DNA of 64,000 bases from Mobula hypostoma (lineage: Eukaryota), in contig NC_086108.1 in NCBI RefSeq assembly GCF_963921235.1, positions 80,044,001 through 80,108,000 of the forward strand, read 5' to 3'. The translations under genes were made by a program, and so were the position numbers. The notes beneath the pieces were generated by a model. That model ran no database searches, was not told the origin of the DNA, and saw nothing but the letters and a program-made list of their open reading frames with translations. Positions 9,680 to 62,891 of the stretch are shown here, piece after piece (positions within the stretch are counted from its first letter, which is position 1; each line of letters begins with the position of its first letter).

Positions 9680-10370
9680 CACAGACTTGTACAGTGCAGA
9701 AATAGGCTCTTTCAGTCCTATTCGTCCATGCTGAGCAAGATGTCTGTCATGGCTGCATTAGGCCTGCGTTTATCTGCTCCTATCCTATCTGGCCAAACAT
9801 TTGGAAAGCATACTAATAGTGTTGCCTCCATCACCTCTGGCAGCTAATTCCAGATATTCACCACCCCCCAAAAACTCACTCTAAAGGTCTCTTCTAAATT
9901 TCTCCCCTCTTACTTTAAACGTGCCCTCTAGTTCTAGATTCCCCTGCCCTGGGAAAAAGATTCTTAACATATACTTGATCTACCCATTTCATAAACTTCC
10001 ATAAGGTCACCCATAAGCCTCCAGTAAGAAAAAAACCAGCCTTGCAAAATATGCAATATTATTTCATAACTACAGCCCTCCATTCCAGGCAACATACTGG
10101 TGAATTTTCTGGACTCTGTGTGGCTACCACATTCTTCCTGTAGTATGGCAACCAGAACTATGCACAGTGCTCATAAAATGCCGGAGGAACTCAGCAGGCC
10201 AGGCAACATCTGTGGAAAAGAGTACAGTCAACGTTTCGGACCGAGACTCTTCAGCATTTCCTCCAGCATTTTGTGCATGTTGCTTGGATTTCCAGCATCT
10301 GCAGATTTCCTCTTGTCTATGCGCAGTGCTCCAAGTTTGGTCTAACCAATGTTTTGTACAGCTACACATG
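9680..10370 (-). mobile_element. CR1 LINE 3' fragment, interrupted at 10173-10316
   Basis: CR1 tail and RT C-terminal homology to other copies in the window. Confidence 0.7.
10173..10316. mobile_element. Mini inverted Penelope-like terminus insertion with 15-bp TSD
   Basis: Minus-strand arm with partial hammerhead (GAAACGTTGACT) is joined to a plus-strand arm with tail. Flanked by CTATGCACAGTGCTC (10158-10172) and CTATGCGCAGTGCTC (10317-10331). Confidence 0.8.
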
Positions 10371-14470: not shown

Positions 14471-15199
14471 CACCAGACTACTAGGGGTGTTGTTTCCCCT
14501 CTTTGTTTAATTACCAATGCAGATTTACTGAGTAACTTCACATCCTCACCACCTTTCATTGCCCATTATCACAGAGCTTGAGGCCAAGTCCCTGCTGATT
14601 CCTCAACAGCTGATGCAGAGATTGTTGGACCCTGATATTTTTGCAACCAAAAGGTTTTTCAGAAGTCAAGAATAAGGCCTGAACTGTTTTGCTAATGACT
14701 GGTTTGTTAATTATTACAAGAGCAAAGAATAAGCAAGGTATGAGACAAAGAAAAGAAAAAAGTTTAAAAGTAGTGTGGTCTTCTCATACTGGACTATTGA
14801 TAACAGAAATTCTATTAATAACCATTAACCAATGAGATAGCCAGTTTCAAATAATATGACACCAGCCACTGGAACCAAGAAGTTTCCAGAGAAATACAGA
14901 GGGAACTGTAACCACTGGAAAACTCAGTGAACAATTACATATATATAGGTGATTATATAAAAATACAAACAAGCATAACAAAGTTAAACTAAAAGAAAAT
15001 AACAATTCTACACTCCAATCCAACAAGGTCCAGTGACACTGGCCTTCTGCATCCAGGTACCCAGGGTGAGTGTGATAAGGGACCAGGCCCAGCATGGTCG
15101 ATCGATTAATTTCTAATTTCATCCTATTGATAACAGTTACACAGAATTTCAATAAATGCAGCCGTTTGCACTGATTTAACTTCCGTGAACGGTAAACGT

Positions 15200-16030
15200 A
15201 AGAAAGTGTGCAGATGCTGGAAATCCAAAGCAACACACACAAAATGCTGGATGAACTCAGCTGGTCAGGCTGCATCCATGGAAGTGAACAGCTGGTCAAT
15301 GTTTCAGGCCGAGACCCCTTCTTCAGGACTGAGAAGGAAAGGGGAAGATGCCAGAATAAAAAGTTGGAGGGGGGGGGGGTTGAGGAGGCTAGCTGGAAGG
15401 TGATAGTTGCAGCCAGGTGGGTGGGAAAAGCCAAGGGCTGGAGAAGATAGGTCAGGAGTGGACCATAAGAGAACAGGAAGGATGAGACCCAGAGAGAATA
15501 GGAAGGTGAGAAGAGGTAAAAGGTCAGAGTGGGGAATAGAAGAGGGGGGGGGAATTTGTTTACCAAAACGAGAAATCAATATTCATGCCATCAGGTTGGA
15601 GGCTAAGCAGATGAAATATGAGGTGTTGCCCCTCCACCCTGAGGGTGGCTTCATCTTGGCACAAGAGGAGGCCATTAACTGAGATGTTGGAACGGGAATG
15701 GGAATTGGAATTAAAAGGATTGGTCACCGGGAAGTTCTGCTTGTTGCGGATGGTGTGGAGGTGCTCGACAAAGTGGTCCCCCAGTTTATGATGGGTCTCA
15801 CCAATGTAGAGGAGGCTGCATCAGTAGCACTGGACACAATAGACAACCCCAGAAGATTCGCAGGTGAAGTGTTGCCTCACTTGGAAGGTCTGTTTGGGGC
15901 CTGAATGGAGGTGAGGGGGGAGGTGTATGGGCAGGTGTAGCACTTGGGTGGCTTTCAGGGATAAATGCCAGGAGGGAGATTAATGAGGAGGGACAAATGG
16001 ACAAGGGAATCACAGAGCAAGTGATAACTG
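15200..16030 (-). mobile_element. Penelope-like element 3' part: GIY-YIG endonuclease remnant + pLTR with degenerate hammerhead (15294-15330)
   Basis: Minus frame TFQVRQHFTCESSGVVYCVQCY*CSLLYIGETHHKLG...LQPDGMNIDF. Hammerhead AGTC-CTGAAGA-AGGGGTCTCGGCCT-GAAACATT-GACC. Confidence 0.88.
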
Positions 16031-18784: not shown

Positions 18785-19276
18785 TACACTCAGTGGCCAC
18801 GTTATTAGCTGCAAATATCTAATCTGCCAATCATGTGGCAGCAACTTAACGCATAAAAGCATGTATACATGGTCAAGAGGTTCAGCTGTTGTTCAGACCA
18901 AACATCAGAATGGTGACTTTGACTGTGAAAATGCTTTTTGGTGTCAGAAGAGGTGGTTTGAGTATCTCAGAAACTGCTGATTTCCTGGAATTTTCACACA
19001 AAAAAAACATCTAGTAGGTGGCAGTTCTGTGGGTGAAAATACCTTGTTTATGAGCGAGGTCAGAAGAAAATGGCCAGGCTGATTCAAGCTAACAGGAAGG
19101 TGATAGTGACTCAAATAACCATGCATTACAACAGTGGTGTGCAGATGAGCATCTCTGAATGCACAATACATCAAGCCTTGAAGTGGAGGGGCTACAGCAG
19201 CAGATGACCATGAATGTACACTCAGTGGCCACTTTATTAGGTACGGGCAGTACCTAATAAAGTGCCCACTGAGTGT
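18785..19276 (+). mobile_element. Tc1-family non-autonomous transposon
   Basis: TIR TACACTCAGTGGCCAC(T/G)TTATTAG. Transposase HTH remnant (RKVIVTQIT...SISECT...GYSSR). Terminal TIR-TIR hairpin at 19217-19276. Confidence 0.85.
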
Positions 19277-19559
19277 GCTTGATGTTCTGAGTACACAAGG
19301 ACACCAGGTCTCTTTGAATGCCAAGCTCTCACCATTTAAAAAAAGATTGCATGTTCTTGTTTAGTTGATAAATTGAATAAATTCTTAAATACTTGAGTGA
19401 AACTGTGTCCCAACAAGACTGTTAGGATTCTGCTTATCACCTATCATAAATCTAGTGAGAGACTGGTAGAGTTCCCATGGAAGTTGTGTAAACATCTGAA
19501 AATGGTCACTGGTACTTTCCCTGGGGATTGCATTAAGTCATCTGCCAAAACTGTTGCGA

Positions 19560-21247: not shown

Positions 21248-22425
21248 TTTACTTTACTCTATTGTCACCAAACAATTGATACGAAAATGTACAATCATCA
21301 CAGCGATATTTGATTCTGCACTTCCCGCTCCCTGGATTACAAATCGATAGTAAATATTAAAAATTTAAATTATGAATCATAAATAGAAAATAGAAAAGGG
21401 AAAGTAAGGTAGTGCAAAAAAAAAATTGAGATGCAGGTCCGGATATTTGGAGGGTACGGCCCAGATCCGGATCAGGATCCATTCAGCAGTCTTATCACAG
21501 TTGGAAAGAAACTGTTCCCAAATCTAGCTGTATGAGTCTTCAAGCTCCTGAGCCTTCTCCTGGAGGGAAGAGGGACGAAAAGTGTGTTGGCTGGGTGGAT
21601 GGTGTCCTTGATTATCCTGGCAGCACTGCTCTGACAGCGTGCGGTGTAAAGTGAGTCCAAGGACGGAAGATTGGTTTGTGTGATGTGCTGCACCGTGTTC
21701 ATGATCTTCTGCAGCTTCTTCAGGTCTTGGACAGGACAACTTCCATACCAGGTTGTGATGCACCCTAGAAGAATGCTTTCTACAGTGCATCTATAAAAAT
21801 TAGTGAGGGTTTTAGGGGACAGGCCAAATTTCTTTAGATTTCTCAGGAAGTAAAGGCACTGGTGGGCCTTCTTGGCAGTGGACTCTGCTTGGTTGGACCA
21901 AGTCAGGTCATTTGTGATATTGACCCCGAGGAACTTAAAGCTTTTGACCTGTTCCACTTGCGCACCACCGATGTAAATTGGGTTGTGCGGTCCATTACTC
22001 CTTCTGAAATCAACAACCAATTCTTTCGTCTTGCTGACATTGAGGGATAAGTTATTGTCTTCGCACCATGTCACCAGGTTCTTAATTTCCTCTCTGTACG
22101 CAAAGTCATCATTACCCGAGATACGGCCTACAATTGTTGTGTCATCAGCAAACTTATATATTGAGTTCGATGGAAACTTGGCTACAAAATCATGGGGGTA
22201 CAGTGAGTACAGCAGGGGGCTGAGTACACAGCCTTGTGGGGCACCAGTGCTCAGAGTGATTGTAGAGGAGAGCTTGTCCCCTATTTTTACAGCCTTGGTC
22301 CTGTCTGTGAGGAAGTTGAAGATCCAGCTGCAGATCTGAGTGCTAAGGCCCAGGTTCCGGAGCTTAGGAATCAGTTTATTTGGAACGATGGTATTAAAGG
22401 CAGAGCTGTAGCCAATGAAAAGGAT
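21248..22425 (-). mobile_element. Rex1-Babar LINE, 5'-truncated, open RT frame (ORF 21472..22452)
   Basis: [64 protein letters not shown]; uninterrupted for more than 300 aa. Confidence 0.92.
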
Positions 22426-22652
22426 CTGTGTGACAAATTGATGAATTAGCATATTATACTTATCTTATTGAAGAGGAATGAGTTCAGCAGTTAACTTCCA
22501 TTGACCAGAAGTATCTGCCAATCAGTGTCTTTAACTCTACTGACTAGTTTATACTTTGTGTAATGATCTACCTGTCTGACCAATAGCCTTACAAACGTAA
22601 TTGTAGATGTGAGTGTGCAGAGTCAGCTAATCAGCCAATAGTCTTGTTGGGA

Positions 22653-22923
22653 AACACACAAAATGCTTTAGGAACTCAGCAAGTCAGGTGGTATCTTTGG
22701 AGGGCAGTAGATAGTCGACGTTTTGAGCTGAGCCACTTCAATAAGACTGGAAAGAAAGGGGGAAGAAGCCAGAACCTCTTTCCTTTCTAATCCTAATGAA
22801 GGGTCTTGGTCCAGGACATTGACAATTTGTTCCTCTCCAAAGATGCTGCAGACCTGCTGAGTTTCTTCAGCATTTTTTGTGAGTTACTCAAGATTTCCAG
22901 CATCTGTAGGATCTCTTGTGTTT
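22653..22923. mobile_element. Old inverted pair of Penelope-like termini (two degenerate hammerheads)
   Basis: Minus arm 22653-22774 and plus arm 22775-22923 (CCTAATGAAGGGTCTTGGTCCAGGACATTGAC + tail). Confidence 0.7.
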
Positions 22924-23539
22924 ATAATCCCACTGGGAAGCCCTGCACTTTGAGGCCAGACCACAAAAGCATAGAGCAGGTCATTGAAAAGGAATGCCTC
23001 AGGTCTGCGTGCATCTTCAAAACACACTTAAAGCATAGATCCAGATCTTACTCGTGTGACAAAAGCTTGTAAATGCAGCATACAGCTACCCAAGAGAAAA
23101 TACCCTTTCTGTGTGTAGAAATGCACATGGAAAAAGATAAAAGATAATAAGAGTAGGCTACATTTGACCCGAGTGGAAAGGAGGACTATACAAACAAATT
23201 AAACAATGTGTAAAGTGATGTATTAATAATCACAGAAGAATTAAATTACATTAAAATTAAATCTATAGGAAATAGATAAAGGAAATAGGAAAAGAATAAC
23301 ATATTCAGAGCTCATATCTAACTGAGTGTATAAAAACTGCGACCAGGGAGGATTCACTACGGGATTGAACAAGGAATGAATAGATAAGAGAAGCAATGGT
23401 AAAGTTGTACTCAGGCGACAATGACCAAAACAACATAAGCACTTAAAAATCAGAGTAACAAATTGTTAAGAAGCTTACTTGAAGATTGAAGAACAAGGGT
23501 GCTGTGAAACATAGTTTATAACTAATTTAAGAAGGGAAA

Positions 23540-24081
23540 TACACTCTGTGGCCACTTTATTAGGTTAACTTGTACATCTGCTCATTAATGCAAATATCTA
23601 ATTAGTCAATCATGTGGCAACAACTCAATACATTAAAAAAACATGCAGTCATGGTAAACAGTTTCAGTTGTTGTTCAGACCAAGCATGAAAATGGGGAAG
23701 AAATGTGATCTAAGTGACTTTGACCATGAAATGATTGTTGTTGCCAGATGGGGTGATCTGAGTATCTCAGAAACTTGCTGATTTCCTGCACACCAGTCTC
23801 TAGAATTTACAGAGAATGGTGCAAAAAACAAAACAAATCATCCAGTGAACAGCAGTTCTATGGTCGAAAAAGCCCTGTTAATGAGAGAAATCAGAGGAGA
23901 ACGGCAAGACTGGTTTCAAGCTGACAGGAAGGTGACAGTAACTCAAGTGACCACCTGTTACAGCAGTGATTGCAGAAGAACATCTCTGAATGCACAACAA
24001 GTCGAACCTTAAAATAGATGGTCTAGAGCAGCAGAAGACCACTAACATAAAGAAATACACTCAGTGGCCACTTTATTAGGT
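23540..24081 (+). mobile_element. Tc1-family non-autonomous transposon, right end interrupted by an LTR
   Basis: Same family as 18785 and 51490; TIR copies at 23540 and 24056. Confidence 0.85.
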
Positions 24082-24322
24082 GTTGTGATTTTAATATTTC
24101 AGTAATATTTGATTAATATTGTAAATATATTGTTTGAATAAGCATCCTTTGTTGTTAACGTGTTATATGTGAAAGTAGGTGAAAGGCGTATGTCATTATG
24201 TCGCCACGTTATAAGTGCGCACCTCACTAAGGTAAAAAGTGAGACAAACACGAGTTACCCTGGGCTCCGTGTGCTTCTTTCAATTAATTTCTGGAATTAC
24301 AAAACATAACAGTGGCAACGAG
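24081..24322 (+). mobile_element. Gypsy-like 5' LTR (24081-24311) followed by PBS-like TGGCAACGAG
   Basis: TGTTGTG...CATAACA termini. gTGGCAACGAG resembles the TGGCGACGAG PBS of Gypsy elements. Confidence 0.65.
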
Positions 24323-25125: not shown

Positions 25126-25745
25126 CATTAAGGTCAACCCTCAACCCTTGCTCCAGAGAAAAAGTCTCAGCTTATCCAGTCTCTCCTTAAAGCAGGCTTG
25201 TTCTCAGCACCTCTCTGGTTGAATCACATCTTTCTTACAGTGTGGCTATGAGAATATTCCAGGTGTGGTCTCACCAATGTCTGTCACAATACATCCCAAC
25301 TTTTGTACTCAATGTCCCAATTGATGCGGGTAACTGTGCTATCTGTCAGTCACCCTGTCGACATGTGTCATGCTTTCAGGGAACTATGAACTTGTACCCT
25401 TTGGCCTCTGTTCTACAGCAATTCCCAGGGCCCTTTCATGTACTGCATATATCTTGCCCGGTTTAACTTCACTTTTCTGAGTCAAATTCCACCTGCCATT
25501 CCTTTGCCCACTTCCACAGTTGATCTAGATCCTGTTGTAATCGTAAAGAATCTTCTTCACTGTTCACTACACTCTCAGTTTCAATATCCTCCACAATGTT
25601 ACTCATCATGCCACCTACATTCTTATCCAAATCATTGGTATACATGGCAGACAACAGGAGACCAATCATCGATCCCTGTGGCACATCACTGGTCACACGT
25701 GCCCAATATGAGAGGTAAAAACATTCTCCATTGCCATCCGTTGGC
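25126..25745 (-). mobile_element. CR1 RT fragment
   Basis: VTSDVPQGSMIG, LQQDLDQLWKWAKEWQVEF. Confidence 0.8.
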
Positions 25746-26240
25746 AATTCTCAGACATCTGCGGTGTTTGTAGAGCACATAATCCAGAACCCAGAATATA
25801 CACGATTCTACTGGCTGCAGTTTAACTCGCTCTTTTCATTTAAGCAAAGTGAGACCTCTGCTACAAACCTAAATTGATGAGGGAGAAATCAATTAAAGGT
25901 CCATTAAATCAGCAATAATTAATATGAGAACCTAATTGTATGTCACCAGCAATATAAAAAGCTATTTTCATTGAAAAGTAAATTGGCAGCATGCATCAAA
26001 AAGTTTCTAATTTAATAATCCTGCAGCATTACAACACCATTTTTTAAACATGTACCTCTAACCATCTTAAAACACTCTATGAGAGTGGAATCAGACACAA
26101 TCTGATTCCAAGCTGCAATAACACATATCAGGCAAGTGTTCAAATGCTGGAGCATCAAATTATGTTTTAAGGAATTACTTTAAGGACAGGCTGTTTAATC
26201 AACTGGAACTACAGATGTTCACTATGACAGCAACAATAAT

Positions 26241-26389
26241 GACTCTTCCTTCAGTTAGTCCTGACGAAGGGTCTCGGCCTGAAACGTCGACTGCGCCTCT
26301 TCCTATAGATGCTGCTTGGCCTGCTGCGTTCACCAGCAACTTTGATGTATGTTGCTTGAATTTCCAGCATCTGCAGAATTCCTGTTGTT
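26241..26389 (+). mobile_element. 149-bp Penelope-like terminus insertion with 9-bp TSD
   Basis: Near-identical to 62292-62439. TSD AACAATAAT at 26232-26240 and 26390-26398. Confidence 0.9.
26257..26292 (+). ncRNA. Minimal type-I hammerhead ribozyme (intact core)
   Basis: AGTC-CTGACGA-AGGgtctcggCCT-GAAAC-GTC-GACT; predicted cleavage after 26288. Confidence 0.8.
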
Positions 26390-27278
26390 AACAATAATTT
26401 CTAAGTTATTTCTTCTATCCATTTACTTCAACATAATTATGAATACTTACAAAATGTTGTTAAAAAGTCATAAGTGTTTGGAACCAAGGATACAGTCTAA
26501 AATAAAAATAAGACATTTTTTGTACCCTTCAAAGGCTGATATTTTAGCTATTTGCATGTGAGGAAATTGGCTGAACAACTGAGTTTCTTAGTTTCAAACA
26601 TTATGCCAGCCTTGCTAGTTCCCAGTCACAAAGTTTGAACTTAAAGAAAACAAGTTCTGAACACACCCTTACCTCTATCCCATGCATTAGGTAGTAAGGG
26701 TATGTTCTGAACGGTGAAAATGTTCAGCATTTGTTACCTGCCAAGAAAAATCACGACCAAATTAGTCAGATCAAAACCTGAGGAGCATTCTACATATGCC
26801 TGTCATTAAGCTGCATTGAGGTGCACCCAGCTACAATCACTTTTACACCAGTCAGTCTCTTAGAAGCAAGTCACAGAAGGTTTATTTACAATGCAATCTG
26901 CTGAAAAGGTTGTACTGCATGAGGAAACAAGGAACTTTTACCCCAGGTCTGATATTGCCTGAAGTGCACACCAAGGTCCTCCATCAACTGGATCGTAGAA
27001 CAACTGCGCAGGTGCGTGGACATCAGCGAGTTAGACCAGCAGGAAGAGTATAAAAGGCGATCATTTTTCCTTTGGCAGTTTGATCGAGGAATGACTGTGC
27101 AGGCACATGGACAACAGCAAGTTAGACCGGCAGGAAGAATTTAAAAAGAAGAAGACAGCTTTACAGAGTGGGCGACTGAGTAGAGGTAGACAGAATAGGA
27201 GGGCTTTGGCTTAACAGGGCTTCGGTGATAGCGGGTTGAGGCAAGGTGGGTTACCTGTGAAGAATAGAAACAGGAAGC

Positions 27279-28209
27279 ATGTCTGTGAGACCGGTGTTCT
27301 GTACTGGGTGTAAGATGTGGGAAGTCCAGGAGACTCCCAGCCTCCCAGAAGGCCACATCTGCGCCAGGTGCATTGAGCTGCAGCTCCTTAGGGATCACGT
27401 TAGGGAACTGGAGATGCAGCTCGATGACCTTCGTCTGGTCAGGGAAAGTGAGGAGGTGATAGAGAGGAGCTACAGGCAAGTAGTCACACCAGGGCCTCGG
27501 GAGACAGATAAGTGGGTAACGGTCAGGAGATGGGAGGGGCAAGAGTCAAATACTAGAGAATACCCCTGTGATTGTCCTCTTAACAATAAGTACGCCTGTT
27601 TGAGTACTGTTGGGGGGGGCTACCTGGGGGGAGCAACAGTGGCCGCGCCTCTGGCACAGAGTCTGGCCCTGTGGCTCAGAAGGGTAGGGAAAGGAAGAGG
27701 AATGCAGCAGTAATAGGGCACTGTCTTGTCAGGGGGTCAGACAGGCGATTCTGTGACGCAGGAAAGAAACACAGATGGTTGTTTGCCTCCCAGGTGCCAG
27801 GATCCGGGATGTTTCTGATCGCATCCACAATATCCTGAAGTGGGAAGGTGAACAGCCAGAGGCCATAGTACATGTTGGTACCAACGACATAGGTAGGGAA
27901 AGGGAGGAGTTCCTGAAAACAGGCTACAGGGAATTAGGAAGGAAGTTGAGAAGCAGGACCCCAAAAGTAGTGATCTTGGGATTACTGCCTGTGCCACACG
28001 GCAGTGAGTATAGGAATAGAGTGAGGTGGAGAATAAATGCGTGGCTGAGGGATTGGAGCAGGGGGCAGGGATTCAGATTTCTGGATCACTGGGACCTCTT
28101 TTGGGGCAGGCGTGACCTGTACAAAAAGGACAGGTTGAACTTGATTCCGAGGGGGACCCGTATCCTGGCAGAGAGGTTTGCTAAGCCTGTTGGGGAGAGT
28201 TTAAACTAG
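27279..28209 (+). pseudogene. CR1 ORF1 (Zn finger/leucine zipper + SGNH esterase), frameshifted
   Basis: ORFs 27279..27713 and 27775..28209. Confidence 0.85.
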
Positions 28210-29536
28210 AATTGCTGGGGGGTGGGAACCGAACTGAAGAGACAGAGAAAGTGCCTGTTGGCTCACAAATAGAGAAAGCTTGGAGACAGTGCGAGAGGGA
28301 GGTTAGGCAGGTGATAGAGAAGGAATGTGCTCAGACCGATGGTTTGAGATGCGCCTATTTTAATGCAAGAAGCATCATGAACAAAGCAGATGAGCTTAGA
28401 ACGTGGATCAATACTTCGAGCTCTGACGCTGTGGACATTACAGAGATTTGGATGGCTCAGGGGCAGGAATGGTTACTTAGAATGCCAGGCTTTAGATGTT
28501 TCAGAAAGGACAGGGAGGGAGGTATAAGAGGTGGGGGCATGGCACTGTTGATCAGAGATAGTGTTACGGCTGCAGAAAAGGAGAAGTCATGGAGGGATTG
28601 TCTACTGAATCTCTGTGGGTGTAAGTTTGAAACAGGAAGGGGTCAATAACTCTACTGTGTGTTTTTTATAGACCACCCAACAGTAACAGGAACATCGAGG
28701 AGCAGATAGGGAGACAGATTCTGGAAAGGTGTAATAATAACAGGGTTGTCGTGGTGGGAGATTTTAATTTCCCAAATATTGATTGGTGTCTCCCTGGAGC
28801 AAGGGGTTTAGATGGGGTGGAGTTGGTTAGGTGTGTTCAGGAAGGTCTCCTGACACAGTATGTGGCTAAGCCTACAAGAGGAGAGGCTGTACTTGATCTG
28901 GTATTGGGAAGTGAGCCTGGTCAGGTGTCAGGTCTCTCAGTGGGAGAGCATTTTGGAGATAGTGATTACAATTCTATTTCCTTTACCATCCCACTGGAGA
29001 GCGATAGGAACAGACAAGATAGGAAAGTGTTTAATTTTAGTAAGGGGAAACATAAAGCTATCAGGCAGGAACTTGGAAGCATAAATTGGGAACAGATTTT
29101 CTCAGAGAAACGTACGGAAGGAATGTGGTAAATTTTCAGGGGATATTTACGTGGACTTCTGCATAGGTATGTTCCAATGAGACAGGGAAAGGATGGTAGG
29201 GTACAGGAACTGTGGTGTACAAAGGATGTTGAAAATCTAATCAAGAAGAAAAGAAAAGCTTACGAAAGGTTCAAAAAACTAGATAATGATAGAGATCTAG
29301 AAGGTTATAACGCTCGCAGGAATGAGTTTAAGAATGAAATTAGGAGAGCCAGAAGGGGTCATGGGAAGGCCTTGGTGAACAGGATTAAGGAAAACCCCAA
29401 GGCATTTTACAAGTATCTGAAGAGCAAGAGGATAAGATGTGAGAGAATAGGACCAATCAAGTGTGACAGTGGAAAGTGTGTATGGAACGGGAGGAGACAG
29501 CAGAGAAACTTAATGAACACTTTGCTTCAGTCTTTC

Positions 29537-31592
29537 GACCATAAGACCATAAGACCATAAGACAAAGGAACAGAAGTCAGTTCTTCGGCCCATCGAGCCT
29601 GCTCCACCATTTTATCATGAGTTGATCCATTCTCCCATTTAGTCCCACTCCCCCGCCTTCTCACCATAACCTTTGATGCCCTGGCTACTCAGATACCTAT
29701 CAATCTCTGCTTTAAATAAACCCAATGATTTGGCCTCCACACTGCCCGTGGCAACAAATTCCATAGATTCACCACCCTCTGACTAAAAAAATTTCTTCAC
29801 ATTTCTGTTCTGAATGGGCACCCTTCAATCCTTAAGTCATGCCCTCTCGTACTAGACTCCCCCATCATGGGAAACAACTTTGTCACATCCACTCTGTCCA
29901 CGCCTTTCAATATTCGAAATGTTTCTATGAGGTCTCCCCTCATTCTTCTAAACTCCAAGGAATACAGTCCAAGAGCGGACAAACGTTCCTCATATGTTAA
30001 CCCTCTCATTCCCGGAATCATTCTAGTGAATCTTCTCCGTACCCTCTCCAACGTCAGCACACCCTTTCTTAAATAAGGAGACCAAAACTGCCCACAGTAC
30101 TCTGTGAGGTCTCACCAGCACCTTATAGAGCCTTAAAATCACATCCCTGCTCCTAAATTCTATTCCTCTAGAAATGAATGCCAACATTGCATTCGCCTTC
30201 TTCACCACCGACTCAACCTGGAGGTTAACCTTAAGGGTATCCTGTACGAGGACACCCAAGTCCCGTTGCATCTCAGAACTTTGAATTCTTTCCCCATTTA
30301 AATAATAGTCTGCCCATTTATTTCTTCTGCCAAAGTGCATAACCATACACTTTCCAACATTGTATTTCATTTGCCACTTCTTTGCCCATTCTTCCAATCT
30401 ATCCAAGTCTCTCTGCAGACTCTCTGTTTCCTCAGCACTACCGGCCCCTCCACCTATCTTCATAGCATCAGCAAACTTAGTCACAAAGCCATCTATTCCA
30501 TAATCCAAATCATTGATGCATAATGTAAAAAAGCGGCCCCAACACGGACCCCTGTGGAACACCACTGGTAACCGGCAGCCAACCAGAATAGGATTCCTTT
30601 ATTCCCACGCTCTGTTTCCTGCCAATCAGCCAATGCTCTATCCACGTATGTAACTTTCCCGTAATTCCACGGGCTCTTATCTTGTTAAGTAGCCTCATGT
30701 GTGGCACCTTGTCAAAGGCCTTCTGAAAATCCAAATATACAACATCCACTGCATCTCCCTTGTCTAGCCTACTTGTAATTTCCCCAAAAAATTGTAATAG
30801 GTTTGTCAGGCAGGATTTTCCTTTAAGGAATCCATGCTGAGTTCTGCCTATCTTGTCATATGCCTCCAGGTACTCTGTAACCTCATCCTTGACAATCGAC
30901 TCCAACAACTTTCCAACCACTGATGTCAAGCTAACAGATCTATAATTTTCTTTTTGCTTCCTTGCCCCCTTCTTAAATAGCGGAGTGACATTTGCACTCT
31001 TCCAGTCCTCCGGAACCATGCCAGAATCTATCGACTTTTGAAAGATCATCGCTAATGCCTCCGCAATCTCCACAGCTACTTCCTTCAGAACACGAGGGTG
31101 CATTCCATCTGGTCCGGGAGATCTATCTACCTTTAGACTATTCAGCTTCCTGAGTACTTTCTCTGTCGTAATTGTGACTGCGCACACTTCTCTTCCCTGC
31201 CACCCTCGAGTGTCCGATATACTGCTGATGTCTTCCTCATTGAAGACTGATGCAAAATACTCATTCAGTTCCTCCGCCATCTCCTTATCTCCCATTACAA
31301 TTTCTCCAGCATCATTTTCTATCGGTCCTATATCTACTCTCACCTGTCTTTTACTCTTTATATACTTGAAAAAGCTTTTAGTATCCTCTTTGATATTATT
31401 TGCTAGCTTCCTTTCATGGTTAATCTTTTCCCTCTTAATGACCTTCTTAGTTTCCTTTTGTAAGCTTTTAAAAACTTCCCAATCCTCTTTCTTCCCACTA
31501 ATTTTTGCTTCCTTGTATGCCCTCTCATTTGCTTTATCTTTGGCTTTGACTTCTATGCCCTCTCCTTTGCTTTAACTTTGGCTTTGCCTTCT
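29537..31592 (-). mobile_element. Younger 5'-truncated CR1 nested antisense in the full-length CR1
   Basis: (CATAAGAC)n tail. RT ORFs 30510..31343 and 30023..30565 (YLDFQKAFDKVPH, SGVPQGSVLGP). Host ORF2 resumes at FTTEKD. Confidence 0.95.
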
Positions 31593-51489: not shown

Positions 51490-52025
51490 TACGCTTGGTG
51501 GCCACACCTGTACACCTGCTTGTTAATGCAATCATCAGCTAATCATGTGGCAGTAATTCAATGTATAAAAGCATGCAGACATGGTCAGACTAAACATCAG
51601 AGTGGGCAAAAGATGTGATCTAAGTGAATTTGATTGTGGAATGACTGTTGGAACCAGGTGGGGTGGTTTGAGTATCTCAGAAACTGATGATCTCCTGAGG
51701 TTTTCACGTACAAGTTTCTCGAGTTTACAGAGAATGGTTCAAAAAACAAAAAAAGCATCCAGTGAGTGGTGGTTCTGTTTACAAAAACACTTCTTAATGA
51801 GAGAGGTCTGAGGAGAATGACCAGACTGGTTCGAGCTGACAGGAAGGAGATAGTAACTCAAATAATCATGTGTTACATTAGCAGAGTGCAGAAGAGCATC
51901 TCTGAATGCACAACATGTAAAACCTTGAAGTGGATGGGTACAGCAGCAAAAGACCATAAGCCATACACTCAGTGGCCACTTTATTAGGTGCAGCAGGTAC
52001 TTAATAAAGTGATTCACTGAGTGTA
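51490..52025 (+). mobile_element. Tc1-family non-autonomous transposon
   Basis: ADRKEIVTQII...QKSISECTTCKTLKWMG. Terminal TIR-TIR hairpin at 51964-52025 ending in TA. Confidence 0.85.
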
Positions 52026-54004
52026 CCTTATTGATGTCTACAGTTAAATGTCTAAATTAATCTCATGCCTCTTGAGTTAGTGGCCGACTGTGGTCTATAA
52101 CACATATGCAGTGTCTACCCCAGGGAGCCATACAGGTTTTTGACTCCACTATCCAGGAGGTCTCCTAAATCATCAGTATCAGGATTTGAAACACTTATCG
52201 GTATCAGATTAAAACTGCCCCACGAAGATCAGTCTTCTAAGCAAATACATGAGTATTAAGTTGTTATTCCTTTTTTTTTGCACTACTTATTTTTGTAATT
52301 CATGGTAATTTTTGTCTTTGCACTGTACTGCTGCTACAAAATAACAAATATCAACAACATTATATATGTCAGTGATAAGCTTGATTCTGAGATGTAATAT
52401 ATAATTAAAATCTAAATAAGTGATAGGGTAAATCGTACTTTGTCACTGGCCTCAAAGAAAGCTCTCACAAGTATCTAGTGACCTGTGTAAGGACTTCCCA
52501 TATTCTGTATTGGTTACTTCCACCCTGGTGATCCCTGGCATCCAGTAACAGTGATATGATCCAGATGGGTGAGCTACCAGCCACACTAAGGAATTCTTAC
52601 AGACAGCAAACTGGAAAATAAGAGGCAACATTTTCAAAAGATGATTAAAATAACGAAATATCACAGACACACTTGCAAAAATAAAACTGATTATTCATCT
52701 GAGGGAATTACAATCCATACATAAATTTAGTTTTGGAGGGCCCAATAATTCCTTCGGCAGTACTGCTTAGTTGGGCAATAATGTTTAGTAAATTATTTAA
52801 ACCATTACACTTTTTAAGAGTGTATGTAGCAATTTCAATGTTTTTCACATCATATGAAGCTTGCAGGTCCCTGGTTTTCATTACTTCACTGATTTAATAA
52901 GATTACTTTCAATGAGAAAAGCTGCAAAATGTCTTAAAGAGGAGCAAAAATCTCTGGCACTAATTTCTGAATTTCCCCATTTAACTTCACACATGCCTAC
53001 TCCATGGTTACGGCAGCCTTGCTGTCAAAGTCTAAGCCACTTAGTTTCGAAAGAGAGCTACTTGCAATAAATTATCCCCCAGAACAGCACAACATCAAGT
53101 TACCTCACCTCTCTGTTCTCCTGATACTGTAAAGTTATTTCCCCAACCAAAACAATATGCTCAGGTTATCAGTTTAATTCTTTAACAGCATCTTCAAAGA
53201 AAACTGCAAAAACACATCCAGAGCAGTCTCAGTCTTTGACCATCAATTGGAAAGGAGGAGCAGGAATACCTCAATCGGCCCTTCAAGCATTTCTGCCATT
53301 TAATACAATACTGGCTGATTCTTTATCGCAACACCATTATTAATCGTTCTTCCCCTATGCATTTTCTTAAATGTATTCAGCAACTTAGCCTCTACGGCCT
53401 TCTAGCTCTGAGCAAATAAATTTCACCAAGCAGTCATATTGTAAATTCCCCCACTAGCTAGCTGCACCATCTTCTCTGCATCCAGCCCTTTGAGCACTGT
53501 CAGAATCTCCTAAGTCTCAGTGAGATCTCCTTTCTTCTTTCAAAACTCCAGAGCTAATCTTATTGACAAAAGAAATAAGGCTCTGTCATTACCCCAGCAT
53601 TCTTTTCAGTTTTTTTAGTGTAACATTGTACCTTATCTCCAAAAAACCTCTTGCAGGAGTAGAGCTAATTTCCATAACTAATTGAAAGCTGTTTAAGTGA
53701 CAGAATCATTACTCCAGAATCAAGGCCACCCATATCTCAGTGGTCAAGTATCAGACTGCAGAGAACATTTACATTTATACATGTTCATGAAGCTTGTTGG
53801 CTTAATCCCAGCAGGGTGTGAAGATGTGCCTTAAATTTAATATGTAGAAGACAAAGGCCATCTACCAACCTGTACCTGCTGCACCATATTGACCCATGAC
53901 TATAAAAGTTCATGTTGAGATGATGGAAAACATGGATTATTTCCCATATCTTGGGAACCACCTCTCAACAAAGACAACATGAATGAGTTAACACACCACC
54001 ACCT

Positions 54005-56360
54005 TCAGAATCAGATTCAGAAATCAAGCTTATTATCACTGACATATGTTGTGAAATTTGTTCTTTTGCAGCAGTACTGCTCAATACATAAAAATTATAA
54101 ATTCCAGAAAGAATATGTAATAAATAAATACATTGTGGATAAAAAATGAGCAAAATATTGAGGTTGGGTTCATGGGTTCATGGAGTGTTCAGAAATCTGA
54201 TGGCAGAGAGAAAGAAGTTGTTCCTAAAACAGTGAGTGTGGGTCTTCAGGCTCCGATACCTCCTTAATGATGGTAATAATGAGAAAAGGGCATGTCCTGG
54301 ATGGTGAGGATGTTTCTTGGTGGATGCTACTTTCTTGAGGCATTGTCTATTAAAGATGTCTTCCATGATGGGGGTCTTGTGCCCATGATGAAGCTGGCTG
54401 AGTTTACGGTCCCTACAGCTTTTTCCAATCCTGTGCATTGGCATCTCCATGTTAGACGGTGATGCAACCAGTCAGGAATGCTCTGTATGGTACATCCGTA
54501 GAACTCTGCCCAAGTCTTCGGTCTTACCAAATCTTCCCAAATTCCTTATGAAATACAGCCAATGACATGCCTTCGTAACTGTGTCAGTATGTTGGGCCCA
54601 GGATAGATCTTCAGAGATGTTGACAGCCAAAAGCTTGAAACTACAGGTGTCCCCCGCTTTTTGAACGTTCACTTTACAAAGCCTCACTGTTATGAAAGAC
54701 CTACATTAGTACCCTGTTTTCGCTTTCAGAAGGTGTTTTCACTGTTATGAAGAAAGGCAGCGTGTGATAAAAAATCAGCGCGCGATAAAAGGCAGCGCGT
54801 GCCCCGAGCAGCCGCTCTGCCCCGGATTCGGAACGGCATTGCTTTAACACGTTGCATTGAGCAGCCGTTAGCAAGATGAGTTCTAAGGTGTCGGAAAAGC
54901 CTGAAAGAGTAAGGGTGTTGCACTTAGCGTAAAACTAGACATAATTAAGCGTTTCAATCGTGGTGAACGAAGTAAGGACAAAGTGAGTTTGGCTTGTGGA
55001 AGTTGACGAAGATGATGTTGAAGAGGTTTTGGCATCCCATGACCAAGAACTGATAGATGAAGAGCTGACGCAATTGGAAGAGGAAAGGATAACAATTGAA
55101 ACCGAATGCAACCGAATGCAGAAAGTGAAGCAACTGCGTGAGATTTTCACTGCAATGATAAAATAGGACTTTAATTTTGAAAGGGTACGTAGGTTTAGGG
55201 GATATTTGCAGGATGGTTTGAGTGCTTACAAACAACTGTATGATAGAAAAATGCACGAGGCTCAGCAGTCAAGCAAGCCTTCCATATCAGCCACAGCAGA
55301 TGACGAACCTCAACCTTCGACATCGAGGCGGGCAGTCATAGGAGAAGATGAGCTGCCTGCCCTGATCGATGATGAGATGACACCCCCGTGTCCCACCACC
55401 CCAACACCCAGGCCGCGGACAGATACTGTACCGATTCACGGAGAATGCAGCAGTAGCCGGGAGGCACACAGCACATCTTTAAGAAAAAAGCCGAAATAAA
55501 CATGCTAATTAATTAGGTGCTGCCTAGCATGTAATTGTCGGCCCAGATCAGAGGCGATGCAATCGGCAATCGCCTTTGATCTGTGCCGACATTTACGTGC
55601 CGGGCAGCACCTCATTAATTAGCATGTTTATTTCAGCTTTTTTTCTTAACGATGTGCTGTGTGCCTCCTGGCTACCCCTGCGTGCTTTGCAGCAATGTAT
55701 CGGGTCGGTGGCCCATAGGGTGGGGTCCACTGCACCACCCAGCCTGCGACGACTCAGTCTAACACACCATCATCAGTGTGCTCGGCGCTGTTTTCCCAAT
55801 TCTGGTAAGTGATACTACACTGTACATACATTATTTCTACTTTATATAGGCTGTGTATTTCTATGTGTTATCTGGTAGATTTGGCAGCTTCATAGTTTAA
55901 AGGTTACTGGAGAGCGCGTTTATGCCAACAGCGCTTGCGTGAGATTTTCTGCCGAGAGCGCTTGCATGAGATTTTCACTACGGAGATCTGCGCAGGCAAT
56001 CATTGTAGAGAAGTATTTCTACTTTATATAGGCTGTGTATTTATCATATCATTCCTGCTTTTACTACATGTTACTGTTATTTTAGGATTTATGTGTTATT
56101 TGGCATGATTTGGTAGGATATTTTTGGGTCTGCGAACACTCACAAAATTTTCCCATATAAATAAATGGTAATTGCTTCTTCGCTTTACGACATTTCGGCT
56201 TACAAACTATTTCATAGGAACGCTCTACCTTCGGATGGCAGGGGAAACCTGTACTCACATTTTCCAATGCTGACCTGTTGATGAGAAATGCTGTGTATTA
56301 CCCTGATTTTTCCTTCCCGAGTCCACAATCAAATCCATGGTCTTACTGACAGTAAGGTTG
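54005..56360 (-). mobile_element. Rex1-Babar 3' fragment split by a Tigger element
   Basis: ISEDLSWAQH, HHPGHALFSLLPS, FRNNFF..AIRFLN; continues at 56254. Confidence 0.8.
54644..56251 (+). mobile_element. Tigger/pogo DNA transposon, internally deleted
   Basis: TA-CAGGTGTCCCC...GGGGAAACCTG-TA. CENP-B-like N-terminus (KGVALSVKLDIIKRFNRGER) fused to acidic C-terminus (EVDEDDVEEVLASHDQELIDEEL); DDE domain absent. Confidence 0.88.
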
Positions 56361-60709: not shown

Positions 60710-61138
60710 GTACTCTAAGTGTGGTCTAACCATGGCTTTATAGAGCTGCAACATTTGCTCATAGCTCTTGAACTCAGTCTCCTAATAAAGGCCAACACAC
60801 CGTACACGTTCTCTACAACCCTCATCAACTTGTGTACCAACTTTGAAGGATAAATGGTAGTGAACTCCAAGATCTGTCTGTTCCTCCACCCTGCCATTAA
60901 CCCTGTATCAATTTCAACCTTCCAAGTGCATAACTTTAGATTTTTCCAGTTTGAACTCCATCTGCCACTTCTCAGCCCAGCTCCGATTCCTATCAATTCC
61001 TTAACCTACAACAACTTTCTACACTATCCGTAACATCACCAACCATTGTGCCATCTGAAAACTTACAACCCACCTTCCCACTTCCTCAAAGTTGCTGGTG
61101 AACGCAGCAGGCCAAGCAGCATCTATAGGAAGAGGTAC

Positions 61139-61174
61139 AGTCGACGTTTCAGGCCGAGACCCTTCGTCAGGACT
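61139..61174 (-). ncRNA. Minimal type-I hammerhead ribozyme (intact core)
   Basis: Exact reverse complement of 62307-62342. Confidence 0.8.
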
Positions 61175-62306
61175 AACTGAAGGAAGAGTGAGTAAGGGAT
61201 TTGAAAGCTGGAGGGGGAGGGGGAGATGCAAAATGATAGGAGAAGACAGGAGGGGGAGGGATGGAGCCGAGAGCTGGACAGGTGATAGGCAGAAGGGGAT
61301 ACGAGAGGATCATGGGACAGGAGGTCCGGGAAGAAAGACGGGGGGGGGTGACCCAGAGGATGGGCAAGAGGTATATTCAGAGGGACAGAGGGAGAAAAAG
61401 GAGAGCGAGAGAAAGAATGTGTGCATTAAAAAGAGTAACAGATGGGGTACGAGGGGGAGGTGGGGCCTAGCGGAAGTTAGAGAAGTCAATGTTCATGCCA
61501 TCAGGTTGGAGGCTACCCAGACGGAATATAAGGTGTTGTTCCTCCAACCTGAGTGTGGCTTCATCTTTACAGTAGAGGAGGCCGTGGATAGACATGTCAG
61601 AATGGGAATGGGATGTGGAATTAAAATGTGTGGCCACTGGGAGATCCTGCTTTCTCTGGCGGACAGAGCGTAGATGTTCAGCAAAGCGGTCTCCCAGTCT
61701 GCGTCGGGTCTCACCAATATATAAAAGGCCACGTCCGGTGCTCCCGATGTGGCCTTTTATATATTGGTGAGACCCGACGCAGACTGGGAGACCGCTTTGC
61801 TGAACATCTACGCTCTGTCCGCCAGAGAAAGCAGGATCTCCCAGTGGCCACACATTTTAATTCCACATCCCATTCCCATTCTGACATGTCTATCCACGGC
61901 CTCCTCTACTGTAAAGATGAAGCCACACTCAGGTTGGAGGAACAACACCTTATATTCTGTCTGGGTAGCCTCCAACCTGATGGCATGAACATTGACTTCT
62001 CTAACTTCCGCTAGGCCCCACCTCCCCCTCGTACCCCATCTGTTACTCTTTTTAATGCACACATTCTTTCTCTCGCTCTCCTTTTTCTCCCTCTGTCCCT
62101 CTGAATATACCTCTTGCCCATCCTCTGGGTCACCCCCCCCCGTCTTTCTTCCCGGACCTCCTGTCCCATGATCCTCTCGTATCCCCTTCTGCCTATCACC
62201 TGTCCAGCTCTCGGCTCCATCCCTCCCCCTCCTGTCTTCTCCTATCATTTTGCATCTCCCCCTCCCCCTCCAGCTTTCAAATCCCTTACTCACTCTTCCT
62301 TCAGTT

Positions 62307-62342
62307 AGTCCTGACGAAGGGTCTCGGCCTGAAACGTCGACT
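62307..62342 (+). ncRNA. Minimal type-I hammerhead ribozyme (intact core)
   Basis: AGTC-CTGACGA-AGGgtctcggCCT-GAAAC-GTC-GACT; predicted cleavage after 62338. Confidence 0.8.
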
Positions 62343-62891
62343 GTACCTCTTCCTATAGATGCTGCTTGGCCTGCTGCGTTCACCAGCAACTTTGATGTAT
62401 GTTGCTTGAATTTCCAGCATCTGCAGAATTCCTGTTGTTTCCCACTTCCTCATTGTCATTTATAAAAATCATTAGGAGCAAGGGTACCTGAACAAATCCC
62501 TGCAGAACACCTTTGGTCACTGACCTCTAGGCAGAAAAGTCTCCATCAATTATTGCACAAGCCACTTTTAGAATCCACGCAGCCATGCCTCTTGACTTTC
62601 TGAATTAACCTGCTACGGGGGACCTTGTTGAACGCCTTACTAAAATCCATACCCACATCCACTGCTCTACCTTCATCAATATGTTTTATGACTTCTTCAA
62701 AGAATTCAATCAGGCTCATGAGGCATGACCTACCCCTCACAAAGCAATGTTAACTATCCCTAATTAGACTTGCTTCTCCAAATGTTCGTAAAACCTGTCT
62801 CTAAGAATCCTCTTCAGAAGTTTGCCCATCAATGATGTAAGACTCACTAGTCTATAATTTCCAGGATTATCCCTATTACCTTTCTTAAACT

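What the first reader, a model, noticed from the sequence alone, without database searches (positions are those of the whole stretch)
26232..26398. Ribozyme-only 149-bp insertion with intact hammerhead and clean TSD
Seen: the insert is just the hammerhead plus tail, nearly identical to 62292-62439 (two adjacent substitutions), flanked by a perfect AACAATAAT duplication. Helix III is reduced to the palindrome ACGU with no loop. Established: such minimal PLE hammerheads are thought to cleave as dimers. Inference: a recently mobile subfamily, and the best minimal construct for testing activity. Either a heavily 5'-truncated PLE or a retrozyme-like non-autonomous unit.
Basis: partly seen in the sequence, partly recalled or inferred. 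Interest (0 to 1): 0.7.

Follow-up and report, generated by a model that had tools for sequence, protein, structure and literature searches.

The report
Young Penelope stub carrying minimal hammerhead
This 149-base insert is a real, recent insertion of the tail end of a very abundant Penelope-like jumping gene in what is likely a ray, and it is absent at the same spot in a close relative; its small hammerhead motif is of a known kind and is predicted to fold shut, and its first bases likely mark where the element's RNA begins.

Summary
Observation confirmed. The insert is 26241-26389 with a 9-bp duplication, and a relative about 2% diverged has the exact empty site. It equals the last 148 bp of a longer copy (61733-62439) that carries the end of a GIY-YIG gene; relatives of that protein have an RT motif and the Neptune cysteine linker. 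So it is the pLTR-plus-tail end of a Neptune-type Penelope-like element (PLE). It is not a retrozyme: single, not tandem, and it spans the cut site.

The motif fits the published minimal hammerhead except for G·U at 10.1-11.1. The whole insert is predicted to bury the core in a competing hairpin, so it is a poor test construct. Cleavage is untested.

The 5' end sits on an initiator-like A with one extra G. I read this as likely run-off at a capped RNA start (about 0.55) rather than random truncation. No shared single-base 5' end appeared in a low-sensitivity test.

This scan has noted the same kind of stub, and the RNA-start idea, many times in this and other genomes. Known kind, low interest.

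The parts
26232..26240 (+). Left copy of the 9-bp target-site duplication (8 of 9 bases A/T)
   Evidence: Sequence; single copy at the empty site in organism B
26241..26241 (+). One extra G, belonging neither to the target nor to the element (long copy has C here)
26242..26389 (+). Terminal 148 bp (pLTR end plus tail) of a young Neptune-type PLE; starts at an A whose context in the long copy fits YYANWYY
   Evidence: 146 of 148 identical to 62292-62439; motif scan
26241..26273 (+). Predicted competing hairpin that pairs the 5' leader with the CUGA core and helix II 5' strand
   Evidence: MFE and pair probabilities; prediction only
26256..26293 (+). Minimal type I hammerhead motif: helix I 26256-26260/26289-26293, core 26261-26267, extra A 26268, helix II 26269-26272/26277-26280, GAAA 26281-26284, ACGU palindrome 26284-26287, predicted cut after C26288
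   Evidence: Sequence; helices I and II form with probabilities 0.55-0.98 in the isolated 38-mer; compared with PMC4209133
26390..26398 (+). Right copy of the target-site duplication
61086..62439 (.). Sister insertion of the same young subfamily: 1310-bp palindrome (61086-62395) plus a one-sided 44-bp tail, same 3' end as the insert
   Evidence: Self-BLAST and arm comparison, 4 mismatches in 655 bp
61742..62014 (+). C-terminal 90 codons of the PLE ORF (GIY-YIG endonuclease) and stop, about 280 bp upstream of the 148-bp segment in the same orientation
   Evidence: Translation; PF01541 E 0.013, below Pfam's cut-off; 96% identical to P0001
61075..61088 (+). Left copy of the sister insertion's duplication (14-bp maximal repeat with 62439-62452; 10-14 bp once ambiguous junction bases are allowed for)
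15190..15950 (-). Older copy of the family with decayed hammerhead, broken GIY-YIG coding and a CxxC remnant; upstream limit approximate
   Evidence: BLAST and translation

Best explanation
This is a recent insertion of the last 148 bases of a Neptune-type Penelope-like retroelement plus one extra G, likely written into an A/T-rich site by the parent's endonuclease and reverse transcriptase from an uncut RNA, with the 5' end likely set by the enzyme running off the capped start of that RNA. Shown: boundaries, duplication, empty site in a relative, identity with the end of a coding copy, a 3' end shared with that copy. Inferred from published PLE work: staggered nicks give the 9-bp duplication, and reverse transcription starts internally at the tail. 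Inferred here: a transcript that starts in the upstream pLTR carries the tail site about 150 nt from its 5' end, so priming there gives a short complete cDNA; copying the cap would give the G. The copy spans the cut site, so its template had not self-cleaved (or had been re-joined). The copy is likely inert: no ORF, no partner hammerhead in tandem, core predicted to be sequestered. My odds: about 0.9 that it is a PLE end-piece and not a separate element, about 0.55 for the whole account including cap run-off.
For: Empty site. 146 of 148 identity and same 3' end as the GIY-YIG-coding copy. Best relatives of that protein are from rays and carry the RT YIDD motif and a CX4CxxC linker, the Neptune/Nematis mark in PMC8557442. 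Family 3' ends pile up at 26383 and 26389 in the runs (table 7). Internal RT initiation defining the tail, A/T-rich targets and no need for ribozyme cleavage were shown for the anole Poseidon element (PMC11167929). The start site lies in the pLTR in Penelope and Chlamys-3 (PMC2377424; PMC8557442). A26242 corresponds to one of 11 YYANWYY positions in 707 nt of the long copy, 4 of 161 in the local zone (consensus recalled). Untemplated 5' G is attributed to cap copying for L1 and SVA (PMC3287187, PMC4859970). 6 of 14 arms in the window start within -20..+1 of the core. Summed depth rises across this zone in both runs.
Against: One junction only; the initiator and G observations are post hoc. The window clustering is weak once the zone is allowed to float: P 0.17, 0.014 or 0.0007 for mean lengths 95, 200 or 400 nt, and 0.45, 0.11 or 0.02 after removing this copy and the three short inverted arms (4 of 10 left). 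Starts of old copies come from BLAST and may reflect subfamily differences. Most clustered starts are at -4..0, not -19. A hairpin explains the same end and the same G (rival 2). No RNA start data were obtained. No RT coding sequence was found linked to these copies inside the window.
Confidence: 0.55

Rival explanations
1. Ordinary random 5' truncation: reverse transcription from the 3' pLTR stopped after 148 nt by chance, and the G is an untemplated base or a later substitution.
For: 5' truncation is the norm for PLEs (PMC8557442). Window starts range from +71 to beyond -500. Depth upstream of 62292 is of the same order as downstream. About 400 different loose-end rows exist over 606 bp in two runs, none shown at 62292.
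Against: Needs the end to fall on an initiator-like A (4 of 161 local positions) and to gain a G by chance. 6 of 14 window arms start in one 22-nt zone.
Confidence: 0.23
2. Structure-set end or aborted fold-back: the cDNA ended at the base of the 26242-26272 hairpin, folded back and copied one base (C26273, giving G26241) before joining the target. This would be the one-base version of what made the 61086-62395 palindrome.
For: The end is the exact base of a predicted RNA hairpin, and G26241 is complementary to C26273. The sister palindrome turns at an imperfect native inverted repeat at 61733-61748. Self-priming is proposed for PLE palindromes (PMC3846280).
Against: With DNA parameters the cDNA's last three bases are not paired (-3.6 kcal/mol), 62292 is not among the 53 of 647 points with a paired 3' end, and neither is 61733. 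One base of match has about a 1 in 3 chance.
Confidence: 0.15
3. A discrete non-autonomous unit (SINE-like or retrozyme-like) of about 149 nt that is transcribed and mobilised on its own.
For: Very high summed depth over the 149 bp. Non-autonomous PLE derivatives exist (PMC8557442; bioRxiv 10.64898/2026.07.22.740005). Go-back joints in organism B suggest some head-to-tail short units (table 5c).
Against: Monomer. No sequence of its own beyond one G. Contigs ending at 26242/26243 mostly continue into PLE upstream sequence (table 7). No depth step of large size at 62292. The unit does not begin or end at the cut site.
Confidence: 0.05

Closest known systems
Endonuclease-positive Penelope-like elements, Neptune clade (PMC8557442; PMC3846280)
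   Same: C-terminal GIY-YIG, CX2-5CxxC linker in relatives, hammerhead in the terminal repeat, short or 5'-truncated copies, inverted copy with one-sided tail, 8-10 bp duplications, solo pLTRs
   Different: This copy holds only the end module; tail in the sister copy is 44 bp against 30-40 bp described; clade assigned by motif, not by an RT tree
Minimal hammerheads (min-HHR) of metazoan PLEs (PMC4209133)
   Same: Type I, no helix III, palindromic 15.2-16.2, short helix I, extra base between 9 and 10.1, mostly single dispersed motifs from truncated PLEs
   Different: G·U instead of the conserved G10.1-C11.1; helix II only 4 bp with two wobbles; a leader hairpin is predicted to mask the core
Poseidon element PAc of Anolis carolinensis (PMC11167929)
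   Same: Defined 3' ends (tail), A/T-rich target, insertion of uncut RNA
   Different: Other clade; ORF start overlaps the hammerhead in PAc and was not located here; 5' run-off products were not described in the parts read
Non-LTR retrozymes (PMC7229834; bioRxiv 10.64898/2026.07.22.740005)
   Same: Short, non-coding, type I hammerhead, related to pLTRs
   Different: Retrozymes are tandem repeats, in PMC7229834 with canonical hammerheads and circular RNAs; this is a monomer with a minimal motif and is collinear with a coding PLE

Membership tests
EN+ Penelope-like element (Neptune type) | C-terminal GIY-YIG endonuclease linked to the repeat | tested here: met
   In the sister copy, not the insert: ORF 61742-62011, PF01541 E 0.013 (16.2 bits, below cut-off 22.6); relatives E 1.6e-5 to 0.002
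EN+ Penelope-like element (Neptune type) | RT in the same ORF | tested here: inconclusive
   Not present in window copies examined; relatives show YIDD (P0001, 96% identical) and RVT_1 in P0035 (E 9.9e-5, below cut-off)
EN+ Penelope-like element (Neptune type) | CX2-5CxxC linker before GIY-YIG (shared by Neptune and Nematis) | tested here: met
   CX4CxxC in 4 of 5 relatives read, first C lost in P0004; CxxC remnant in the old window copy; criterion from PMC8557442
EN+ Penelope-like element (Neptune type) | Placement in the Neptune clade by RT phylogeny | not tested
   No reference PLE set was held
EN+ Penelope-like element (Neptune type) | Insertion hallmarks: duplication, fixed 3' end, inverted copy with one-sided tail | tested here: met
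Minimal type I hammerhead (min-HHR) | Core C3 U4 G5 A6 N7 G8 A9, G12 A13 A14 A15.1, U16.1 H17 | tested here: met
   Sequence
Minimal type I hammerhead (min-HHR) | Helices I and II, extra base after A9, palindromic 15.2-16.2 | tested here: met
   Form in the isolated 38-mer, not in the whole insert
Minimal type I hammerhead (min-HHR) | Conserved G10.1-C11.1 pair | tested here: not met
   G·U here and in 8 of 10 distinct window copies; G-C in 2. Described as highly conserved, not obligatory
Minimal type I hammerhead (min-HHR) | Covariation in helices | tested here: inconclusive
   75.6% of cells paired vs 75.4% shuffled; covariation 0.193 vs 0.219; 10 distinct rows, mostly decayed, several cut inside helix I
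Minimal type I hammerhead (min-HHR) | Self-cleavage, as a dimer | not testable with these tools
   Needs in vitro assay
Rfam hammerhead families | Match to a covariance model | tested here: not met
   0 hammerhead hits among 6 matches at E<=1 over the window
Non-LTR retrozyme | Tandem units, at least two with hammerheads | tested here: not met
   Single unit between duplications; criterion
Non-LTR retrozyme | Unit separate from coding PLEs | tested here: not met
   Collinear with the end of a coding copy
Non-LTR retrozyme | Expressed as circular RNA | not tested
   No RNA run was laid

The most novel reading that the evidence does not exclude
Ray Neptune elements make short solo-pLTR copies by priming at the 5' tail site and running off the capped transcript end. 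The genome would then record the element's start sites and cap (A at 26242, G at 26241), and a leader hairpin starting at +1 would hold the hammerhead off in the RNA that gets copied. I did not find this stated for PLEs in searches, or in the paper parts read; earlier unchecked notes of this scan propose the run-off part.
Probability: 0.4. Interest if true: 0.5.

Novelty: new member of a known kind. Interest (0 to 1): 0.25.

Why it matters
As a single locus it matters little: it is one of a very large number of PLE stubs. It is useful as a clean, dated record of PLE integration, with a verified empty site, exact duplication and fixed 3' end, and as a presence/absence marker between two close ray species. 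If the run-off reading holds genome-wide, it would explain why hammerhead-plus-tail stubs are so common, locate the Neptune promoter, and support the view that PLEs copy uncut RNA.

Tried and rejected
No whole genome is held for this window, so 5' ends could not be counted in the assembly. Rfam scan: no hammerhead hit. A 26-base pattern from the hammerhead found 0 matches in metagenome contigs and 0 in viral contigs. No RNA holder listed for the locus; no RNA run was laid, so expression is open. All laid runs are contigs: summed depth is not a copy number, and rare alleles are dropped. Organism A contigs cross the 5' and 3' junctions with 0 differences but with only 28 and 22 letters on the insert side, under the tool's 31-letter rule; that sample may be the assembly's source, so polymorphism within A is untested. 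Organism D contigs stop at 26231 and go on for 53 letters that are not shown, which fits an empty site but is not counted. Covariation test gave no support beyond shuffles. Two-copy cofold of the 38-mer gave a non-hammerhead duplex as its minimum; nearest-neighbour folding does not model the hammerhead core, so I draw nothing about activity from it. DNA fold-back test did not support pairing of the cDNA end. Duplication searches for the old single copies gave only 6-8 bp or distant matches, not relied on. Literature search for 'extra G' with four other terms found 0 papers. The dimer-cleavage paper PMC5785218 is not held; I saw only its citation and a review's summary. Look-ups of earlier findings by sequence and near this place were empty. 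No supplements were read; those of PMC4209133 and PMC11167929 may list fish or shark motifs and end maps bearing on novelty.

Full report
Observation. The insert runs 26241-26389 (149 bp) between two copies of AACAATAAT. It matches 62292-62439 at 146 of 148 places, and its first base, G26241, corresponds to C62291. Exact 9-mer repeats occurred in 167 of 12.7 million position-spacing pairs in this window.

Empty site. Public runs held the locus in organism A (word shares 0.85-0.94) and in a relative B (0.50-0.54). I laid 4 of the 24 listed runs on 25300-27300. In both B runs (one sample) a single contig joins 26231 to 26390, so B has one copy of the 9-mer and no insert. Flanks differ at 26 of 1353 and 13 of 681 letters, 1.9%. 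The duplication was therefore made on insertion, and the insertion is younger than the A/B split or polymorphic across it. At 26295 the share of summed depth not showing the common A is 34% in A against 2-4% in B and D; at 26349 the share not showing the common G is 21% against 1-4%. Summed depth is not a copy number, but the contrast suggests a subfamily burst in A.

What it is a piece of. The 62292 copy is the end of a 1354-bp insertion: a 1310-bp palindrome (61086-62395, 4 mismatches in 655 bp), a 44-bp tail on one side, and its own 10-14 bp duplication. Its sense arm has 90 open codons with a weak GIY-YIG match (E 0.013), then a 3' UTR, then the 148 bp. The best protein relatives are named from Mobula hypostoma (96%) and Hypanus sabinus (90%), so the host is likely a ray. 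Relatives show the RT YIDD motif and a CX4CxxC linker, which PMC8557442 gives as the Neptune/Nematis mark (passages). The same paper describes heavy 5' truncation, inverted copies and one-sided tails as typical. The window holds 14 arms of this family, old and young. In the runs, 3' ends pile up at 26383 and 26389, and contigs that stop matching at 26242/26243 mostly continue with PLE upstream sequence. Laid on 61745-62350 (2 runs), depth in A is 0.5-3.4 million upstream of 62291 and 2.0-4.6 million from there on: a rise, not the step that a dominant 149-bp family would give.

The ribozyme motif. It fits the min-HHR of PMC4209133 (parts 1-2 of 4 read): type I, no helix III, short helix I, extra base after A9, palindromic 15.2-16.2. 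It departs at 10.1-11.1, which is G·U in 8 of 10 distinct window copies. Rfam does not detect it and the small decayed alignment shows no covariation. That paper found no monomer cleavage and low dimer cleavage for a schistosome motif. In the Xenopus preprint 1 of 9 dimers cut (parts 1-3 of 5 read). The anole motif cut only with protein, and cutting was not needed for insertion (PMC11167929, parts 1-2 of 4 read). In folding predictions the whole insert pairs its first 33 nt with the core (0.96-1.0), and helices I and II have probability 0.00. They reach 0.83-0.94 only in 44-50-nt trimmed forms, where the core itself is predicted to mispair. The long copy forms the same hairpin (0.8-0.94). It starts 47 nt before the cut site, so its template was uncut or re-joined.

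How the 5' end arose. After reading earlier scan notes that such copies begin just ahead of the hammerhead, I looked at the junction. A26242 is one of 11 YYANWYY positions in 707 nt (consensus recalled), and one extra G precedes it. For L1 and SVA such a G is attributed to copying the cap (PMC3287187 and PMC4859970, passages). Penelope and Chlamys-3 start transcription in the pLTR (PMC2377424 passages; PMC8557442 section 10), and PAc primes internally at the tail. Priming at the 5' tail site would give a short complete cDNA like this one. In the window 6 of 14 arms start within -20..+1 of the core, but the scan-corrected P runs from 0.17 to 0.0007 with the assumed length scale, and from 0.45 to 0.02 after dropping this copy and three short arms. 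No loose end at 62292 was among the rows shown. A weak hint of recurrence: the A contig ends at 26268 rather than 26271, which would follow if another place shares the G-containing junction 30-mer (my inference). A rival is an aborted fold-back at the hairpin base, but DNA folding does not pair the cDNA end (PMC3846280 passages and Discussion). I give run-off 0.55, random truncation 0.23, fold-back 0.15, separate element 0.05. Later look-ups showed that other notes on this genome reach the same run-off idea; they are unchecked and are not independent support.

Comparison and verdict. It works like, and by every insertion hallmark tested belongs to, the end-pieces of endonuclease-positive PLEs. 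It fails the retrozyme test of tandem units (PMC7229834 passages; preprint criterion). Dispersed single min-HHRs from truncated PLEs are already in print. Dimer cleavage I know from PMC4209133 and a review's passages (PMC6765202); the primary paper was not held. Novelty: new member of a known kind. Interest 0.25, mostly for the verified empty site and the testable 5' junction.

Noticed in passing
61086-62439: Young palindromic PLE insertion; the turn (61733-61748) lies at an imperfect inverted repeat native to the coding sequence, which suggests fold-back priming. Presence in organism B was not checked.
   Followed up: partly
10165-10331 and 22654-22924: Two older head-to-head hammerhead-tail insertions; the first has a candidate 8-bp duplication, and both turn near the front edge of the hammerhead.
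   Followed up: partly
run X8, table 5c: Go-back joints such as 26367 to 26257 (depth 310, several times single-copy depth) suggest head-to-tail short hammerhead units in organism B, which could be retrozyme-like arrays.
   Followed up: no
26385-26394: The 3' junction is self-complementary over 5 bp (element end TTGTT, target AACAA); the sister copy's junction is not.
   Followed up: no
26263-26266 with 26285-26288: With C at position 7 the core can form four Watson-Crick pairs with the cleavage-site strand, a predicted mispair in trimmed monomers.
   Followed up: partly
19214-19280, 51961-52028, 23536-24082, 18810-19276: A repeat family with a short terminal hairpin gives sub-threshold mir-9256 matches; likely a transposon end, not a microRNA.
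   Followed up: no
55447-55681: A 235-bp imperfect palindrome (86% between arms), not matched to the PLE.
   Followed up: no
21475-22464, 27261-29557, 30026-31571: Long open frames that look like LINE (CR1/L2-type) ORF1, endonuclease and RT fragments (identity judged from recall).
   Followed up: no
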